From assembly GCA_951406725.2 (NCBI GenBank), contig OX597818.1:97402001-97466000 (forward strand): a stretch of DNA of 64,000 nucleotides. Direction: 5' to 3'. Origin of the DNA: Octopus vulgaris (taxonomy: Eukaryota). Shown here one piece after another: positions 11,732 through 61,838 of this stretch (its first letter is position 1; each line of letters begins with the position of its first letter). The notes under the pieces were generated by a model. The model was given only the letters and a program-made list of their open reading frames with translations. It ran no database searches and was not told where the DNA came from. The position numbers were made by a program, and so were the translations under genes.

Positions 11732-12409
11732 ATAACATCTGCTGGGCAACTGATACTGCTGTGCACAGTGTCTTTCCTCTGCTCGCATCATTATACCTAA
11801 TATGTTATAGTTGCATTGCACTGAGAGTTTCACAGGAACTTTCCATCAGTATCCTTTCATATAATGTGTGATTATGTTCTTGTACATATCTATCACATCA
11901 TTTCATTGTCTACTTTTCCATGCTTGCATGAGTTAGACAGAATTTGCTGGAGTAGATTTTCTGCAGCTCGATGCCCTTCATGTCTTCAGTCTGATGAGTA
12001 GTGCTAGTGCTTTATAGGTGCAAAACCAATGGTCACTCAATGACTGGCCATGACTTTTAACTTTATATATATATTTCTATATCTATCTAATTATTTTAAC
12101 TAATTTATCCATTACCCATCTCGCCTCTCGTGTATTCATCAACCATCGTGTATTCGCGGTGCACCCGCCCTGCCCACCCCCACCACCAATACCGGATATC
12201 TCTATTTTTGCTCCATCCATACCGGATGTCGCTTCTCCCACCACCATAATAGGTGTCTACTCTTCGAACCCCCTCTTCAATACGCTATTTCACCATGCAT
12301 TACCCCTCTCTTGATATCCTACGTTCTACTTGCCTAGAACCTGTCATCATTTCTCTGAACCACCCCTCCCCACTGGTGCTCCCCTATATTTCTGCACCCC
12401 CCCTACATA

Positions 12410-12646
12410 AAAAAAGCACCATCCGAACGTGGCCGATGCCAGACCCCTCTGGCACCTGTGCAGGTGGCACGTAAAAAACACCCACTACACTTGCGGAGTG
12501 GTTGGCGTTAGGAAGGGCATCCAGCCGTAGAAACTCTGCCAGACTAGACTGGAGCCTGGGGCAGTCCCTAGCTCCCCAGACCCCGGTCGAAACCGTCCAA
12601 CCCGTGCTAGCGCGGAAAACGGACGTTAAACGATGATGATGATGAT
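12410..12646 (+). mobile_element. SINE family C
   Basis: GTGGTTGGCGTTAGGAAGGGCATCCAGCCGTAGAA...GGACGTTAAACGATGATGATG. Confidence 0.85.
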
Positions 12647-48258: not shown

Positions 48259-49105
48259 ATGAAGAACCCAGTGATTTAACATTGATAAAAGTACATATAA
48301 ACTTCAATTCCAATTCGGTAGATTCCGCAAGCAATTTAGCTTCCAATTTGTAACGTGTGTGCGAAGCGAATTTCGTTGTCCAAATATGTGGGTATGTTTA
48401 AATGTCAAACAGCGTTCTTTAACACTAATACAAGTAGGGAATATAGCGGATATATAAGAATAAACATTGATTTATCTGCTGTATTATCCGCCGAAAATAG
48501 AATTAATTATTTAATCTTTTGTAATCAGAGGTATCCATCAGCAAACAGGTGACTTCCGGAATAGTGGTGATGGGGCAATAAGATGGCTGTCGTAACATTT
48601 TATATCTTTTCCAATCGAGATAACCGCAGCTGGAAATGGAAACGACTCCCAAGTTGAAATATTTGTTCGCTTTGCATGTGTATTTTTTTAATGATACCAC
48701 AAACCATAAAGAGAAGACAGTTCGGTAGTGAGTGAAAGACAGAAATGCCGCGAGGAATATTTAGTTTACTAAAAGAGGGGACAGATATTTATATATGATA
48801 ACTGTATGATATGGAGATTAGTAACTTTTTAAACAAATATACTTTAGTATAGGTAATATATATAAGGCCCCACTCCCACATCCTTCTGTCATATTTCTGT
48901 TAGCATACAACGCCTTTGTTTCAATTAAATTTGAAAAGAATGAATTTAGTAAAATTAAACTAGTGTTTGGAACAAATTAACCAGGTTTGCTTGAAAGTAA
49001 TTTAGCTCACTTAAAAAAATTGTATAGGGCTACGTGCAGTCTCAGACAGATAGGGAAAATAACTAGCAAAACGCATATAAACAGATATAAGATAAAGTGA
49101 TTTAC

Positions 49106-50085
49106 CTTTTTTAGGGAGTCTTACAAGCACCGTAGCAACTCCATTAACTATTTCACAGAGAATATGATCAGCAATCTCCTCTTCGTCTTCAGATACTAGT
49201 CTATGTAAAAGATCCACGTTTTTCTCCAAAGCAAACTTTAGCTCGACTTCTCCATCGTACACATCAATTTTACCTCTCAAATGAGTTATGGGTGTAATGC
49301 CATAATTGAACAAATGCATTCCAGGACCCCACTCAGCTTTGGGGTTCGGCGGCAGTGGAGAACAATCCGACAGAGGAGAGTTGCAATAGAGCACGTATGA
49401 ACACAGCCATTCCAATTTGCTCCTAGAATCTCGTCCAAAGATTTCAGCTTTGAACTTTCCAATAATAGGAAATCTTACTTCGATACACAATTTTTTATTT
49501 TCAATGTCTCTTTCGAGTAACATGTATTTTGCAAGTTCTTTTTTGTCGTCGGGGTTGCCAATTTTGTTTGATCTGTAGAGTTCAAAAGAGAATGACAAGT
49601 CAGTACGTGTAACACCAAGTTCAATGTTAACAAGACCATCTACTGATTGAAGACTGCACCAAACGTGGCTTTTGACAGTGAGACCGAACTCAAAGAAATG
49701 AGGCTTTAGATAAAGAGCTTTCTGAAATTCATTTTTCGTTAAAGGTCGAGCTAGTAGTTGCCAAATTTCTTCGTCGGGAAAGTGACTATATATAAATTTT
49801 TCTGGATCAGTCAAGAAATAAAACTCATCAAACTCATAAATATTCTGAACGATGGAGTCGTCTATATCGCTGCTGTTTGCTTGCTGACATTCAACCAATT
49901 GCCATTCTTCAGCTTCGACTCCAGATATCTTGCGCGATGCCCAATGAACATCTATCAGGTACCATGTGTCTTTTATAAGGACTGCATTCCAGATGTTTCT
50001 CGTGCTTGGGGTAAGAGGGTCACCAACATTAAATCCAACTCCTTTTGAATGGCCTTGTATTGAAACTGAGGATATATCAGCAAGC
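49106..50085 (-). CDS. KY/hillarin-like gene, transglutaminase-like core exon
   Basis: TTTCAG|G completes CG|G (Arg). LADISSVSIQGHSKG...WNAVLIKDTWYLIDVHWAS...EFYFLTDPEKFIYSHFPDEEIWQLLARP are hallmark KY/hillarin/LTD-1 motifs. Donor G|GTAAAT, phase 1. Confidence 0.95.
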
Positions 50086-51234
50086 CTGAAATTAAATGCT
50101 AAAAGTGAGATTGAATCAACCACACATACACATTCACACTGAAAAGTACGTATAAAAATAATATACAAAAATATAAATGTAGAAATACTTAAATTGATAA
50201 TAATTTCCTCAGATACGATCGTTGCGTATGAAATGATGTCACATACAAAAGAAAAAAAGCAAGAAAGGAAAAAAACCCAGTTCTATTCCGTATCTGCAAT
50301 ATCACTTCTTTCATCTACATTTAAATTACTATATTTTTTTTATCTGTTAGATTTGAAGGAAGGGACAGTGCCTCCGACCGTCGCAGGCGCCCTGAGATTG
50401 TTACTCGGTGAGATAGTTTTTGTTAACGTTCCGTTTAAACCGTTTCAAGTCGACACTTGTAGGTAAAGAATTTCAGTGTTGACATTCTGGGAAGAAAAGA
50501 CTGGGACGTGTAGTGAATGATATTAAGAGGAGAAATAAGTTAGTTTGGAGTGTCTGAGTAAGGGTGGCACGAAAGCAACCAGATCCGAGGAGTAAAAGCC
50601 ATTGTTGCAGCGGTAATAAAGGCAAAGAAAGATAATAACCACATCAGTGAGTGACTTTAGGATACTCTGCCGTGTTAGATGACTAGATGCCTATTCTTGA
50701 CAGTCAGGAAAACAATGTAGAACACGAACTATCATAAGAAACATATTCCTATAAGAAATGCACTAAAATACCAATAACAGATGTTAACTTAAGCTACATT
50801 TCATCTAAACCTAACCTTATTTACTCAACAATCTGGTGTGTATCTGTTGTAGAGGTACTGACCAGTTTCCAGGAAAACAAGTCTGTGGGTAGGCTTCGAC
50901 TCACAACTGGATAAATTCGATTTTACTTGTATTCATTAATGCTGTTAGGCCAGGTATGACCGTTTTGTCATTTATGTATAGTCAAAATCTTTGAGAGAAT
51001 TAAGAGTAATTAAGTAGATAGATTATACGACAGTCAGTTAGAGCTGACGGTTCTATAGTTTCATGCTATATCGCTTGGGATGTTCTATACCCACGGTCAA
51101 GGCTCTTAACACACTCCTGCTTAATGTGCTTAGATCCTGTCCTGAATTGGACAGGATCGAAGAGGCCGATAAAAAGAAAAAAAGCAGATAAATATTAAGC
51201 ACAATATAACATATCATTACCGATGTCATATAAC

Positions 51235-52884: not shown

Positions 52885-54035
52885 GTGTGTGTATATGTTT
52901 GTGTGTCTGTGTTTGTCCCACCAATATCGCTTGACAACCGATGCTGGTGTGTTTATGCCCCTGTAACTTAGCGGTTCGGCAAAAAGACACCGATAGAATA
53001 AGTACTAGGCTTACAAAAGAATAAGTCATGGGGGCGATTTCCTCGACTAAATGCGGTACTCCAGCATGGCCACAGTCAAATGACTGAAACGAGTAAAAGG
53101 GTAATAGTGCAGAAATGGACAGCTGAATTTTGGAAGCGAAGGAAAAGGCTTGAAGATGATCCAATGTCTGGACGTCCTGCAACTGCTATCACCGAGGAAA
53201 GCATTGATCGTGTTCATCACCTCGATGATAGGCGATTGACAATAAATCAAATGGCCAATGCTATTAACATATCCTGTAAGAGAATATTCTCCACGATGAA
53301 CTTAGCACGACAAGCATTTCTACTGGTGTGTGCCAAGTCTTCTGACACCTGATCAAAAGCGCAACCATGCTGATCACATGACGGGGAAATCTGATCTTGT
53401 TCGAGGCAAATCCACGAGGTTTCCTTGAAGGTTTTCCAATCCTGGATGAGTGTTGGGTTCATCACTTTGATGAACCAAGGTTGTTTCAAACTTAAGCCAT
53501 CAGCTTCCATATGAAGATGATGACGTAAGTTTTTGGGGATGCAAAAGGTATTGTGTTTATTGACTATCTTCAAAAGGGCTACACTATCAACGGAGAGAGT
53601 ACTATGCCAACTTGATGAAGCAGTTACGAAAGGCTCTCAGTAGCAAACGCCCATGAAATCTGACGAAAGGGGTCTTGTTTTATCAGGACAAAGCTCCAGT
53701 ACACAAGTCCTTGGTTTCAATGGGTGCTGTGTGTGACTGTGGTTTTGAAATGGTTGATCGCCCTTCCTATTCTCCTGATTTGGCCGTATCTGACTATCAT
53801 CTCTTCCCAACATGAACAAATATTTGGCTGGGAACCAGTATTGCAGTGATGATGACGTCATATCTTCTTTTTGATCAAAGGATGAAATATTTAGCAATGA
53901 GAACCAAGCACTGCAACACCAATCGAAGTAGTGTATAAATCACAAGGGGAACTGTGTTGAAAAATAGACCTCATTTGACCACATTACATGAGAGTGTCTT
54001 GGTCAATCTATGAGCTTTTTAGCCGGTGCTTGCGT
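52379..54035 (+). mobile_element. Old, degenerate full-length mariner (irritans-like) with nested SINE A
   Basis: Degenerate TIRs GCTGAAAAATTCATAGGCTGAC / GTCAATCTATGAGCTTTTTAGC. Transposase remnants DKIWHCGVIKYLQKK, VQKWTAEF...LEDDPMSGRP and PSYSPDLAVSDYHLFP. Confidence 0.88.
52671..53103 (+). mobile_element. SINE family A inserted in the mariner transposase
   Basis: Interrupts DDAPGLS|IVQKW, with a short AATAG duplication. Confidence 0.92.
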
Positions 54036-54044
54036 GCGGATATA

Positions 54045-55337
54045 CGAGGGGCGTTCAATAAGTAATGCCCCTGACCCACTTCCCATAGCAGTAGAGCAAC
54101 GAAACTTGGCACAGGTATTAGTCTTTTTCAGCATAGGAACAACCCAGAGTTACGCATTTCTCCCATCGTTTGATACAGCTTTGGAGACCGTTTTCATAGA
54201 AGATCCCCAGCTTGGTCCTCCAACAACGACGTGACTTCAGAAAGCAAGGCTGCATCATCTGGGAAACGCTTTCCTTTCAAAAACAACTTCATGGCTGGGA
54301 AGAGGTGAAAATCAGAGGGTGCAAGGTCAGGAGAGTAGGGGGATGGGGGAAGTGTTCATAGCCGCACGCCTGTGCTTCTGATCTGGCGACACGCGAGTTG
54401 TGGACCGGGGCGTTGTCCTGCAGGAGGAGGATGCCTTTGCTGATCTTGCCCCGCCTCTTGGTTTTGATAGCTTCTCTTAATTTCCTCAAAAGTGAAGCAT
54501 GATAGGCTCCTGTAATTGTGGTACCCTTTGCCAGGAAATCTGTCATCACTACTCCGTCCTGGTCCCAGAAGACTGTGAGCATGACCTTGCCAGCGGAGGG
54601 CTGCACCCTTGCCTTCTTTGGAGGAGGTGAGTCATGGTGCTTCCACTGCATTGACTGGGCTTTGGTCTCTGGATCATGGTGAAGGACCCGGGTCTCATCC
54701 TGTGTAATCAGTCTTTTGAAAAATTTTGACTCATCTTCTTGGCACATCCCTAAATTCATCCTCGAGCACTCGACGCGTTCTTGCTTCAGGAAAAGTGTGA
54801 GCAACCTGGGAATCCCTCTGGCAGACACCTTTTGCATATGCAAATGGTCATGACTGATAGTTTCCACAGACCCGGTACTAATCTTGACCTCATGGGCTAT
54901 TTGGCGAATAGTTATGCGTCCATCTTCCAAAATGGCAGCCTCAACTTGACGGACAGATGCCTCATCAATGGCAGAAGGGGTGCGACTAGATCTGGGAGCT
55001 GTTTCCACAGTGTTCCGACCGTGTTTGAATTCACGATGCCAGCGTTTTACAAGGTCATATGATGGGGCATCATCACCATAAGTTATTTTCATTTCATCAA
55101 AAGTCTCCTGTGGTGTGCGTCATTTCAAATACAAAAACCGGATCACTTCTCGACACTCAACAGGCTCCATTTCCCACTTGACTCATTTCAAACACATGTA
55201 AATCAGAAACCACTATTAGTTCGGAGCTGTAATTTGCCACTTAATCTATAGAGATATAAATAATTATACTTGCAAAATCTCAGCTAGATCAAACAATTAC
55301 AAGTGGGTCAGAGGCATTACTTATTGAACGCCCCTCG
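54045..55337 (-). mobile_element. Near-intact 1.29-kb mariner (DD34D) with TA TSD
   Basis: 37-bp TIRs CGAGGGGCGTTCAATAAGTAATGCCYCTGACCCACTT with 1 mismatch, flanked by TA. Confidence 0.96.
54115..55170 (-). pseudogene. Mariner transposase pseudogene
   Basis: ATG at 55170, TGA at codon 17 (55122-55120), TQDET and QDNA motifs, and a -1 frameshift near 54340 just before YSPDLAPSDF. There are 34 residues between the second and third Asp. Confidence 0.92.
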
Positions 55338-58145: not shown

Positions 58146-58735
58146 ATGATTGTGGAAATAGCAGCAGTGGAGGCGGTCGAGGACTGCCTCAGAGAAGTTA
58201 AGACTGTAACGACATGCTGCACCAGAGTGGGGAAGTACGGCGCGATAGAGGTGCGCTTCGTGAATGAAGAAGCGAGAAAGTGCTCCACTGTGCCGTTGAG
58301 GTCGGCTGAGTGGGCGCTGCTACCGACTTACTGTGGCGGGCGTGCTGCCGGAGTGGGAATGGGTGGGGTGCCCCCCGGAGATTGATGAGGCGTGGATGGT
58401 GGCAGCCGTCTTCTGCAGTGCGGAGGAGGATACAGAAATGTTGAAGGTATCGAGAGCTGCGGAGATGCCGCTGGTGGAGATGTGGACTGGAGGTGTCGGT
58501 CCATGTGGGCTTGCCGGAGCTCCGCAGGATTGCGGAGGAGCTGGTGCTGTCGGACAAAGTAAGGTTGGGAGTTGTGGTGGTCGGAGGACCGCCTGTGTTT
58601 TCTATGTGCTGTGGGGAGCATGAGGGCTGGGTGTCCCCAGAAGTACGAAGTGTGTTTTAATGTACCCCATTGTATTGCTTTGTCTGTTTTTGTATTGTCC
58701 CTTCTCTATTAAGGCCTTGTACTTAATTAAAGAAA
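58146..58735 (+). mobile_element. GC/G-rich retroelement ORF1/gag-like fragment, frameshifted
   Basis: Protein-like reading (EAVEDCLREV...GKYGAIEVRF..EEA...LLPTYCG...VPPEIDEAW) with frameshifts, in an island of about 44% G within an AT-rich window. ORF1 identity is an inference. Confidence 0.5.
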
Positions 58736-59047
58736 TAAGGACGTTGGTATTGCCTTGGCGGAGGTTTTCGCTCTCTGAGTGCTCTTATTATTATTATTAT
58801 TATTATTATAGGCGACTAACTGACAGAATCGTTACAGTGTCCGGAAAAAAGTGCTTTGCAGTATTTGTTCCGGCTTTTTACATTCCGAGATCAAATTCTA
58901 CCAAGGTTAACTTTGTTTTTCATCCTTGAAGGGACGATAAAACAAAATTTCAGTCTACTTAGTATGGGTGGGGCTGATAGTATCGACAAATATCCTCCCC
59001 TCAAAACTCTTAAATCAGAATCCACCTTCTGTAAAATAAAATTTACC

Positions 59048-59086
<39 letters not shown>

Positions 59087-59101
59087 GTGGGGGCTACTCA
59101 C

Positions 59102-59334
59102 CGACACATGTCGTTGAAGAATATATCGTAGCGACCTTTACTTTCTTTCAGCTCATTTAAGTAACGGGCCGGACTATTAGTCGGTGTATTGCCTTGAATC
59201 TGATACGACTCCAAATCTTGTTCGGTAATCCAACGGAAAATAACTCGAACTTTGGCAACTTCATCATTAGCAAATGGCGAAATTAAATATTGGACAAGTT
59301 CTTCAAGTTCAGTTGTCAACAAGTTCTTTGGTGC
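59102..59334 (-). CDS. KY/hillarin-like gene exon
   Basis: APKNLLTTELEELVQYL...KVRVIFRWIT...YDIFFNDMC(R). Acceptor TCTTTGCAAG phase 0, donor CG|GTGAGT phase 2. Confidence 0.92.
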
Positions 59335-60236
59335 CTTGCAAAGAAGATAAAAGAAAGGAGTCATAGAAAATGATTCATGGATTTCTGAAAGGAAGAACTT
59401 TTTACCCTCTTGTTTTAATCATAGGACTGCAGCCAAACTGGGGCACCACCTTGAAGGGTGAAATGAACCCTAATACATTTATTCTATCATTTCCTTTTAC
59501 CGAACTGCTGAGTTATAGTGACATAAACAAAGCCAATGCCGATTTTCAAGCGGTGCTAGAGAGTAAAACAAAATTTCGGTCTCGAATTCCTTTTAAGTGA
59601 CCGACAGTGCAAGATGGCCTTCCACCTTTGAATAATACCTCCAGTCCGTCACACGGTTAACCTCTCAGCTTTGTTGCTACTCATATTCAGCTTCGCAGCT
59701 GGAAATAATGCGAAACAAAGTACCTTATTCAAGTTCATAATGTGCCACCTGTACTGATAATTGAGCCCACGACATAGCGAATGTGAGTTCAGCAACTAAA
59801 CCTTTACATCACACACGCACAGAGAGAGTGGGTGAGAGAGATATTGGTCCTAGTACTTTATCGACCAAGTTCGCTTCGACTGGATTAACGTCAGAACTCA
59901 AAGAGCCTTGATATTTAAATATTCATAGTAAGGCATTTTGTCCGACGTTCGTACGATTCTGACAATCTATTTATCTTCGATTACCGGCACTCCGCTCTTC
60001 TTTTATCGGAAAATGTCATAAAAAGATGTAGTTACCAGGAATTGAACTTGCATATTATTAATAAATCAACCAATTTAGGTTTCTTCGCCTCTTTTTTACT
60101 ACTACTACTGCTACTACAAGCATCCAACCAGAAAATCCATAGCGAGAGAGGGAGAGGTATAAGTTGTGAGGAGTAGAAAAGAAAGCGATTAAGGAGAAAA
60201 TAAGAAAAGGTAAAATCAAAAACATTGAAGTTTTAC

Positions 60237-60494
60237 ATTTTTGGCGTGGGAATCCGTCTTTCCGAAATCATTTTTCTTGTAGATTTCTTCTTTTGGTCGA
60301 TATCTTGGATAAGGCAGTGCTTTGCCCTTCCGGTCACGAGGTAAAACAGAGCGAAGATCATTGGCTGTTATTTGGGCTTTTGTCAAAAGTTGTGGCGTTG
60401 GTGGTTGCCGATCGAATTTATAAGGTTTCAAGGCATTTTTAAGTGCTGCATAGTAATCTTTTACAGATATTGCTGCTTCTTTGGCATCCATCAT
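60237..60494 (-). CDS. KY/hillarin-like gene, first confident coding exon (exon starts 60511)
   Basis: TTTCAG acceptor at 60512-60513. MMDAKE...PYPRYRPKEEIY...FGKTDSHAKN|GTAAAA, phase 0. The eight exons sum to 3552 nt (1183 aa plus stop). Confidence 0.85.
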
Positions 60495-61838
60495 TATTGG
60501 AATTTGTGCTTCTGAAATTATAAAAATAGAACAAATGTTTAAATAGTCTTATTGTATTTCATCTATGTAATTTTGCAATAGGAGCGGCCAATAGGATTAA
60601 GAAAATATCTCTAAATATTTATAGATACGTATCTCAATGTGGGCTTATCACAAATATGAATTTGTTAGTCATCTCCGCCACGTTACACACTTTCAAAGTC
60701 ATTCAGCAATTGCTGCATTGGAACGGAATAAGGTTTCTCTAAAAATAAATACTGCTCTTATCTCAATAAAGGGCTTGGCAATTCAAAGCACAATCCAATA
60801 TAACAAACACATAAGATGTAGTCATCATAATTTGCTGGACGTGATATGAAAGTCGTTAACATTTGTTATTATATAATTAAGAGACCAAGTTGCTATCTGA
60901 GGGCGGCGACCATCAAAATGGTATCTTTGAAAAAGGAAGTCTGTACTCTTCATTTGCTATACTAAAAATTCACAGTGATTGTTTTAAGATGTTAACTGCC
61001 ATCGAGTGAACGTTTTAGAATATTTGGACGTTGTATCTCAATGCAAGCGCTACGATAGCCAGTTACTAGAGGTAGGGCTGATGAGAATGGATGGAGGGAG
61101 GATTCAGTCAGTACATCGGTCTTGGAGGTATCTTAATCTAAGCGTTCCCAATATTTTAATTGCGTGTTACTACGAGTAGGGCTTATGAGAAGGGGCAGAG
61201 AACTCTGTACATCGGTCTGGGGCTGTATTTTAATCTAAGCATTACAAATACTTTAACTGCGACTCTTTTATTACAGATAAAAACTTGTAGGAAGGGGTGG
61301 CAGATTCAGTCGGTAAATTGAGATTGGATCTCAGTCAAGGGTAGGTTCATGAATATCCGATAAGTTCGACTCTAAAAGGAAAACCTAAAAAGTCCTTTGT
61401 ATTTTAAGAGGACCCATCTCCGATTTTGTGGATTTTGTTCCGCCTGGCAACATTTCCCTCAAAGGCTCTAACTCTAAGCTATAATGCATTGTATATTTGA
61501 GCTGTTTATGGAAATGAACGCCTTACTGATAGCAAATGGGGGAAATCTGGATATAGATTCCGGTTCAGCTCTCTAAATAGTTGCAGCTTCCATAGACCTT
61601 ATCTATCGTAAATACTATAAAAAATAATCAAAACTCATCTGATTTTTAAGTATGAGCGATATAGCCTAGATAAAAACACCAATTTACTTCAGGCAAATTT
61701 TCTAAAAGATCTTACACCTATTCCAGATTTTTAGTTGAACTAAGCTAATAAATTTTAAACGTTCTATCTAGAGACAAGTAGAAATACAGTACTAAGAGAT
61801 GAACTCAAAACATTTTAGCAGGACAGTTTATTTATTAA

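What the first reader, a model, noticed from the sequence alone, without database searches (positions are those of the whole stretch)
58146..58640. Possible ADAR hyper-edited retroelement RNA fixed in genomic DNA
Seen: a strand-asymmetric island. A manual count over 58331-58638 gives about 44% G and 16% A, and about 30 of 48 surviving As follow a G. The protein-like frame degrades into Gly/Cys/Val/Ala-rich text (TCCTR, ARKCST, CGGRAAGVGMGGVPP), as expected if Lys/Arg/Tyr/Ile/Thr codons took A-to-G changes. Established: ADAR disfavours a 5' G neighbour, reverse transcriptase copies inosine as G, and cephalopods edit heavily. Inference: an edited LINE ORF1-like transcript was retrotransposed, so RNA editing became heritable DNA change and may act as an anti-retroelement mutator. 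The GA enrichment is modest, so this needs the family comparison.
Basis: partly seen in the sequence, partly recalled or inferred. Interest (0 to 1): 0.8.

Follow-up and report, generated by a model that had tools for sequence, protein, structure and literature searches.

The report
RNA edits fossilised in octopus retroposons
This stretch is a broken copy of an octopus jumping gene in which over a third of the A letters have become G on one strand only, in the sequence context favoured by the RNA-editing enzyme ADAR, and about a dozen sister copies show the same scar, so edits made on RNA were likely copied back into inherited DNA many separate times.

Summary
Observation confirmed, and the family comparison supports the interpretation. 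Window 58152-58785 is a 5'-truncated, internally deleted copy of a ~1.7-kb ORF1-only non-LTR retroposon (predicted tandem RRM, zinc knuckle) that sits at a fixed site of a Helentron-type DNA repeat with a 15-bp duplication. Against unedited sisters it has 54 of 147 A changed to G (sisters 3%), and 1 of 89 T to C. A after G is spared (3/47), against T 16/23, A 21/37, C 12/25. 13 of 166 scored family segments show the same signature. Ten edited copies placed on a tree do not form one clade, and the edits stop at the target duplication. Contigs from two studies match the window, and two other organisms carry the same edited copy, so it is old, inherited and no assembly error. Best reading: ADAR hyper-edited the RNA before target-primed reverse transcription (about 0.85). 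Not shown: the enzyme, the double-strand partner, the mobilising element, any defensive effect. The 3'-neighbour preference differs from the one published for octopus. This scan noted similar cases on other DNA; my paper searches found no report for non-LTR elements.

The parts
58152..58650 (+). Middle of the ORF1 of an ORF1-only non-LTR retroposon; hyper-mutated A>G (about 54 sites between 58219 and 58650); 5' part of the element and the upstream half of the host repeat are missing
58607..58634 (+). Damaged remains of the CCHC zinc knuckle coding stretch
   Evidence: sisters read CFLCGVRGHMKAKC; PF00098 in 20 of 22 aligned relatives; place
58650..58651 (+). Junction of a ~765-base internal deletion (reference columns 1197 to 1963)
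58651..58737 (+). End of the 3' UTR of the retroposon, ending in the family's AATAAAGA-type terminus (58725-58733); essentially unedited
58738..58752 (+). 3' copy of the 15-bp target-site duplication; single in the free host repeat, doubled around the ORF1 unit in full copies
58753..58785 (+). 3' end of the host Helentron-type non-autonomous repeat (HINE-like): subterminal repeat 58757-58764, small hairpin 58769-58781, then T-rich (TTA)n flank 58785-58809; unedited
49011..50282 (-). Context: coding stretch of a KY-like gene (Ig-like_KY domains); the element probably lies antisense in one of its introns, with likely upstream exons near 59098-59418 and 60216-60548 (exon status inferred, not tested)
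   Evidence: PF23265 E=2e-39; open frames

Best explanation
The stretch is a decayed genomic copy of an ORF1-only, site-specific retroposon whose A-to-G burst was most likely written by ADAR on its RNA and then fixed in the germline by reverse transcription. Shown: the unit encodes only an ORF1-type protein, sits at a fixed site of another repeat between 15-bp duplications, occurs 5'-truncated and in tandem, and carries sense-strand A>G at 10-37% of As in about a dozen copies, with strong 5'-G avoidance, confined to the inserted unit. Inferred: (1) the element RNA paired over most of its length with antisense RNA of the same family, for example from copies lying antisense in introns; (2) ADAR deaminated up to a third of the As; (3) the last ~200 bases stayed largely unedited, because they were unpaired or protein-bound, or because only RNAs with an intact 3' end could be mobilised; (4) the reverse transcriptase of an unidentified autonomous partner, probably Tx1-like, copied inosine as G during target-primed insertion in the germline; (5) the copy then aged neutrally, lost its 5' part and an internal piece, and was inherited by at least three labelled organisms.
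For: Spectrum in six edited copies: A>G 689/2755 (25%) against 294/9622 (3.1%) in 21 sisters; the other 11 change types at or near background. 5' neighbour, pooled: T .51, A .36, C .18, G .10 (p 3e-46), flat in sisters; top triplets TAG, TAC; 5'-G depletion is the shared ADAR motif in PMC5625713 (passages). Confinement: host repeat 5' part 4/250 against 68 expected at ORF rates, host 3' end 0/37 against 11, 3' UTR 13/203 against 74. Independence: on non-A columns the 10 edited rows need 10 changes and one clade is rejected, p-AU 2e-47; the window shares only 0-5 other substitutions with each of five edited copies. Unedited units lie beside edited ones: 4/272 next to L006; 12/254 next to 59/246. 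RNA intermediate: 15-bp duplication against the single site in free repeats, mixed tandem arrays, 5'-truncated inserts with duplications, L185 and L200. Real and inherited: contigs of two studies match with 0 and 1 difference; organisms B and C carry it joined to unique flank, and of 55 edited places only 58408 is listed as differing, in C. Deaminase genes of the ADAR/ADAT family are present at four loci.
Against: 3' neighbour: A is the least edited (T .30, A .20, C .33, G .28), whereas PMC5625713 reports A enriched downstream in the invertebrate group that includes octopus (passages). No long fold-back partner was found: the first ~1 kb of one unedited copy folds only moderately (z -3.2), and inverted matches near edited copies do not cover the edited parts, except one 72%-identical neighbour. 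No autonomous partner was found. Eight of the ten edited rows lie in an unresolved star, so the tree alone cannot exclude shared ancestry among them; shared A>G sites exceed the context expectation modestly (30 against 25 for window and L042). Second codon positions are edited less than context predicts (52 against 65). Only the window copy was checked against sequencing runs, and these were contigs, not raw reads.
Confidence: 0.85

Rival explanations
1. Edited RNA reached the DNA by conversion of an already inserted copy: cDNA of an edited transcript overwrote a resident unit by homologous repair. ADAR is still the mutator, but the insertion and the edits are separate events.
For: Edited tracts differ in extent between copies, and L139 switches from edited (59/246) to unedited (1/51) across a deletion.
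Against: Edits begin within 1-30 bases of the duplication in L048, L139, L132 and L201 and spare the host repeat, which read-through transcripts would contain; edited and unedited copies are about equally old on non-A columns (5.5-15% against 4.4-11%).
Confidence: 0.06
2. In-place DNA deamination: ADAR or another deaminase acted on the genomic strand in an RNA:DNA hybrid or on single-stranded DNA of rolling-circle transposition.
For: ADAR can deaminate DNA in hybrids (cited in PMC12925331, passages); the window copy probably lies antisense in an intron, which would put the sense strand in a hybrid; the host repeat is of a rolling-circle type.
Against: The host repeat ends are unedited; neighbouring units in the same loci are unedited; no copy shows a real T>C excess (1 of 166 flagged, at 6/124), though copies lie in both orientations on chromosomes.
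Confidence: 0.04
3. Error-prone copying: reverse transcriptase under nucleotide-pool imbalance, or polymerase eta at WA motifs, made the A>G changes.
For: T and A are the favoured 5' neighbours, as in the WA motif (motif recalled, not from a call).
Against: A>C and A>T are barely raised (1.2% and 2.4% against 0.8% and 1.7%); C is a well-used 5' neighbour in the window (12/25); a slippage model would favour, not spare, A next to 5' G (inference).
Confidence: 0.03
4. Ordinary explanation: a G-rich subfamily, GC-biased conversion, or an assembly error.
For: The first search used the G-rich copy and so enriched for G-rich relatives.
Against: G is at 3.7% on average among sisters at the window's edited columns; edited copies fall in at least three subfamilies; T>C is not raised; independent contigs and two other organisms carry the Gs.
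Confidence: 0.02

Closest known systems
ADAR-type A-to-G hypermutated retroviruses (Rous-associated virus, avian leukosis virus, HTLV-2), as reviewed in PMC12925331 (passages read)
   Same: A>G clusters of ADAR type recorded in DNA through reverse transcription; up to about half of the As changed.
   Different: Those are infectious retroviruses, with edits in U3 or an inverted repeat. Here a non-LTR, non-autonomous element, edited over ~1.4 kb, fixed in the germline and shared between organisms.
APOBEC 'DNA-edited' retroelements fixed in vertebrate genomes (PMC4866542 and PMC2873906, passages read)
   Same: Deaminase bursts in single retroelement copies, strand-biased, context-specific, inherited.
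   Different: G>A made on cDNA of LTR elements; that screen reports none in 19 invertebrates and left out non-LTR elements. Here A>G, likely made on RNA, in an invertebrate non-LTR element.
A-to-I hyper-editing of repeat RNA in cephalopods (PMC5625713, PMC9068888, passages read)
   Same: Octopus has very high hyper-editing; ubiquitous edits are directed at repeats; 5'-G depletion.
   Different: Those are RNA-level edits; a role against transposons is called unexplored there. Downstream preference differs (A enriched there, least edited here).
HAL1 (ORF1-only L1 derivative; PMC5753468) and Tx1-dependent SINEU-3 inserting in Mariner-N4 (PMC4494074); passages read
   Same: ORF1-only coding as in HAL1; fixed target inside a non-autonomous DNA transposon, ~15-bp duplication and tandem insertions as in SINEU-3.
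   Different: No poly(A) tail here; subfamilies use different targets; no autonomous partner identified.
HINE / DINE-1 (non-autonomous Helentrons; PMC4067079, passages read)
   Same: The ~365-bp host repeat has subterminal inverted repeats, a 5' inverted repeat, a microsatellite, a 3' hairpin and T-rich flanks.
   Different: Perfect subterminal match is about 9 bp, shorter than the 12-15 bp described; no Helentron partner was sought.

Membership tests
ADAR hyper-editing signature | Dense A>G on one strand, other changes at background | tested here: met
   54/147 against T>C 1/89; pooled 25% against 3%
ADAR hyper-editing signature | Depletion of G at the 5' neighbour (U > A > C > G) | tested here: met
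   window .70/.57/.48/.06, p 2e-9; same order in all six copies
ADAR hyper-editing signature | 3' neighbour as published for octopus hyper-editing (A enriched) | tested here: not met
   A is least edited at .20; G, C, T .28-.33, against PMC5625713; the two measures use different baselines
ADAR hyper-editing signature | Long double-stranded RNA substrate | tested here: inconclusive
   no long intramolecular duplex; no matching inverted partner at edited loci; antisense RNA not examined
ADAR hyper-editing signature | Inosine in the RNA, dependence on ADAR | not testable with these tools
   no RNA holder listed
Non-LTR retroposon (TPRT product) | Target-site duplication, 5' truncation, fixed 3' end, no LTR | tested here: met
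   the window copy itself has lost its 5' duplication
HAL1-like ORF1-only element | ORF1-type protein without ORF2 | tested here: met
   tandem RRM fold and knuckle; 19 of 20 long loci have no same-strand RT frame; the one exception, L100, is a 3'-broken unit abutting an unrelated RT piece that its sisters lack
Tx1 clade | Sequence-specific insertion into repeats | tested here: met
Tx1 clade | RT/endonuclease of the partner groups with Tx1 | tested here: inconclusive
   no partner among 30 3'-end loci or 30 endonuclease loci
HINE (host repeat) | subTIRs, 5' inverted repeat, microsatellite, 3' hairpin, T-rich target | tested here: met
   subTIR shorter than described
HINE (host repeat) | Autonomous Helentron with the same ends | not tested
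   not searched
LTR element or provirus | LTRs, capsid-type gag, pol | tested here: not met
   RRM fold, no pol, no long terminal repeats

The most novel reading that the evidence does not exclude
In the octopus germline ADAR acts as a routine mutator of non-LTR retroelements, an invertebrate counterpart of APOBEC DNA editing: roughly one in eight insertions of this clade (4 of 30 loci found with an unedited query) arrived with a fifth to a third of its As turned to G and its ORF1 wrecked, while the spared 3' end marks the part of the RNA that must stay intact for mobilisation. The genome thus holds a datable fossil record of germline RNA editing.
Probability: 0.55. Interest if true: 0.85.

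Novelty: new variant of a known kind. Interest (0 to 1): 0.72.

Why it matters
RNA editing is normally not inherited. These copies show, in several independent events, a route from edited RNA into germline DNA in an animal known for heavy editing. That makes an open proposal testable, namely that ADAR defends cephalopod genomes against retroelements (called unexplored in PMC9068888). Edited and unedited copies can be counted per family and per age, and they map which parts of the RNA were double-stranded and which part had to be spared. Such copies would also confuse RNA-editing calls and repeat dating.

Tried and rejected
Pfam gave nothing for the window's own frames. Composition as evidence was rejected after the control island 12161-12468 proved to be an ordinary repeat. 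A single G-rich subfamily was rejected. The composite moving as one DNA transposon was rejected as the source of the edits, because host ends are unedited and different subfamilies share the junction; later passenger movement of some composites is not excluded. Autonomous partner: not found. Hammerhead ribozymes in the targets of distant subfamilies: suspected from a recalled motif, but Rfam gave no hammerhead match in 3 of 3 loci. No RNA holder listed, so expression is open. A second check against sequencing runs, on the full-length edited copy L042, was not obtained, so only the window copy is confirmed outside the assembly. The wide profile search for ORF1 relatives could not be run, so the family's range outside Octopus is open (one search gave three Octopus bimaculoides proteins; one search gave ZCCHC3-like and unnamed CCHC clusters at 0.88-0.93, leads only). 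In one search, 24 of 207 segments had too few neighbours or columns; one search also dropped low-complexity ones, leaving 166, some of which are pieces of one insertion. L260 (31/168) missed the joint threshold and is not counted.

Full report
Observation. The counts are exact: 43.8% G, 15.6% A, 30 of 48 A after G in 58331-58638, p about 0.004 against shuffles; it is the most skewed 308-base stretch of the window. Skew alone is not diagnostic, since the runner-up island is an ordinary repeat with near-identical copies. The genome is probably an octopus: the only protein relatives found are named Octopus bimaculoides.

What the element is. The own-genome search gave 43 matches. Full copies are ~2.1 kb composites. 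The outer part is a ~365-bp repeat with subterminal inverted repeats, a 5' hairpin, a GTTT microsatellite, a 3' hairpin and T-rich flanks; of 29 other loci found with its 5' part, 27 continue directly into the 3' end. These are the HINE features of PMC4067079 (passages). The inner ~1.7-kb unit sits between two copies of a 15-bp sequence that is single in the free repeat. It codes one protein with a zinc knuckle in 20 of 22 aligned relatives and a predicted tandem RRM fold (pLDDT 71, best matches RRM pairs). 19 of 20 long loci have no same-strand RT frame; L100 is a broken unit abutting an unrelated RT piece. Distant subfamilies share the 3' terminus (111 pattern matches, 0 controls), use other fixed targets, form mixed tandem arrays, and include 5'-truncated inserts with duplications (L185, L200). 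This is the anatomy of a HAL1-like, site-specific non-LTR retroposon, resembling Tx1-dependent SINEU-3 in Mariner-N4 (PMC5753468, PMC4494074; passages). Tx1 membership is not established, since no partner was found. The window copy covers reference columns 699-1197 and 1963-2102 only; the rest is not in the window.

The mutation pattern. In pairwise alignments the window has G where relatives have A 1654 times, the reverse 357 times, and C/T or T/C 247 and 223 times. Polarised by column majority, six of 47 units stood out: window 53/148, L042 180/564, L006 137/562, L043 112/574, L045 105/547, L048 95/528. Against 21 unedited sisters these six have A>G 25% against 3.1%, with all other changes near background. 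The 5' neighbour order is T > A > C > G in each of the six, and flat in the sisters. 5'-G depletion is the shared metazoan ADAR motif (PMC5625713, passages). The 3' neighbour disagrees with that paper's invertebrate group: A is least edited here. Edits fall on all codon positions (80, 52, 120 against 72, 65, 116 expected from context), so more than half are at first or second positions.

Where the edits lie. They cover the 5' UTR and ORF, fade near the end of the ORF, and are near background in the 3' UTR (13/203), the host repeat's 5' part (4/250) and its 3' end (0/37). Units beside edited ones are unedited. The mutator therefore acted on the inserted unit and not on the locus.

How often, and independent or not. 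Among 166 scored segments 13 pass both tests at p<0.01, strand excess and 5'-G avoidance; one passes the reverse test only through a lack of A>G. Two searches used edited queries and enrich the count; with an unedited query 4 of 30 loci were edited. None of 25 segments of the L091-like clade and none of 22 found by the 3' pattern were edited, so the rate differs between subfamilies, for reasons unknown. On non-A columns the ten edited rows placed need ten changes and are rejected as one clade, p-AU 2e-47. That result leans on L006 and L132, which sit in other subfamilies; the other eight lie in a star. Among these, other shared substitutions are few, and shared A>G sites exceed the context expectation only modestly, as site preferences on the same RNA would give.

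Real and inherited. Contigs from two studies of organism A cover 58154-58640 with no difference and 58154-58767 with one. Organisms B and C have the copy joined to unique flank, with 11 and 18 other letters. Of 55 edited places only 58408 is listed as differing, in C (one row of that table was not shown, and B's contig ends at 58593). The best run may be the assembly's own sample; the others are not. The burst therefore predates these splits, and non-A divergence (7.0%) matches the unedited sisters (4.4-11.2%).

Mechanism. Shown: retroposon anatomy, strand, context, confinement, recurrence, inheritance. Inferred: a long duplex, probably with antisense RNA, since the sense RNA forms no long hairpin and no fitting inverted copy lies near edited loci; deamination by ADAR (family genes at four loci, not typed further); copying of inosine as G at insertion; a spared or selected 3' end. 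Conversion by edited cDNA, in-place DNA deamination and polymerase error fit less well, for the reasons listed under rivals. Whether editing restrained the family is not shown.

Novelty. Known: ADAR-type hypermutation in avian and other retroviruses (PMC12925331, passages), APOBEC G>A copies fixed in vertebrate genomes with none in 19 invertebrates (PMC4866542, passages; PMC2873906, passages), an A>G-rich mouse provirus that lacked the ADAR context (PMC12548423, passages), and heavy RNA editing of cephalopod repeats (PMC9068888, passages). Seven searches aimed at prior reports (listings and abstract starts only) showed no paper on ADAR-edited non-LTR copies fixed in a genome. The library lacks most subscription papers, and I read no supplements; those of PMC4866542 may hold A>G counts. 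This scan noted like cases in other octopus elements (unchecked notes, read after my analysis), none on this family. Verdict: real, a new variant of a known kind, interest 0.72.

Noticed in passing
window 12161-12468: C-rich island (G-rich on the minus strand); head of a young repeat with copies at 94-99% identity, followed in many loci by ~250-bp tandem units. Not edited; served as a control.
   Followed up: partly
window 54289-55119 (-): Mariner-type transposase remnant, PF01359 E=2e-24; a second mariner-like piece near 53002-53352 (not scanned).
   Followed up: partly
window 49011-50282 (-), 59098-59418 (-), 60216-60548 (-): KY-like gene with Ig-like_KY domains; the element probably lies antisense in an intron.
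   Followed up: partly
L094:900-3600, L091, L175, L188, L200: Distant subfamilies insert just upstream of a CTGATGA...GAAAC motif in a ~330-bp repeat, recalled as a hammerhead core (retrozyme or Penelope end); Rfam found no hammerhead. None of this clade is edited.
   Followed up: partly
L108:2700-8500: Three different subfamilies of the ORF1-only element stacked head to tail at one target site.
   Followed up: no
L100:5183-6643 (-): RT fragment (PF00078) abutting a 3'-broken ORF1 unit; motif recalled as Penelope-type; sisters lack it.
   Followed up: partly
L132:306-1119 and L043:1254-1501: Long palindromic insertions in or beside edited copies; they do not match the edited tracts.
   Followed up: no
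L094 model, residues 364-444: The ORF1 protein has a further confident alpha/beta domain at its C-terminus after a charged linker; not identified.
   Followed up: no
L148:1828 onward: The same site of the host repeat holds a unit with a different 5' sequence, so several families share this target.
   Followed up: no
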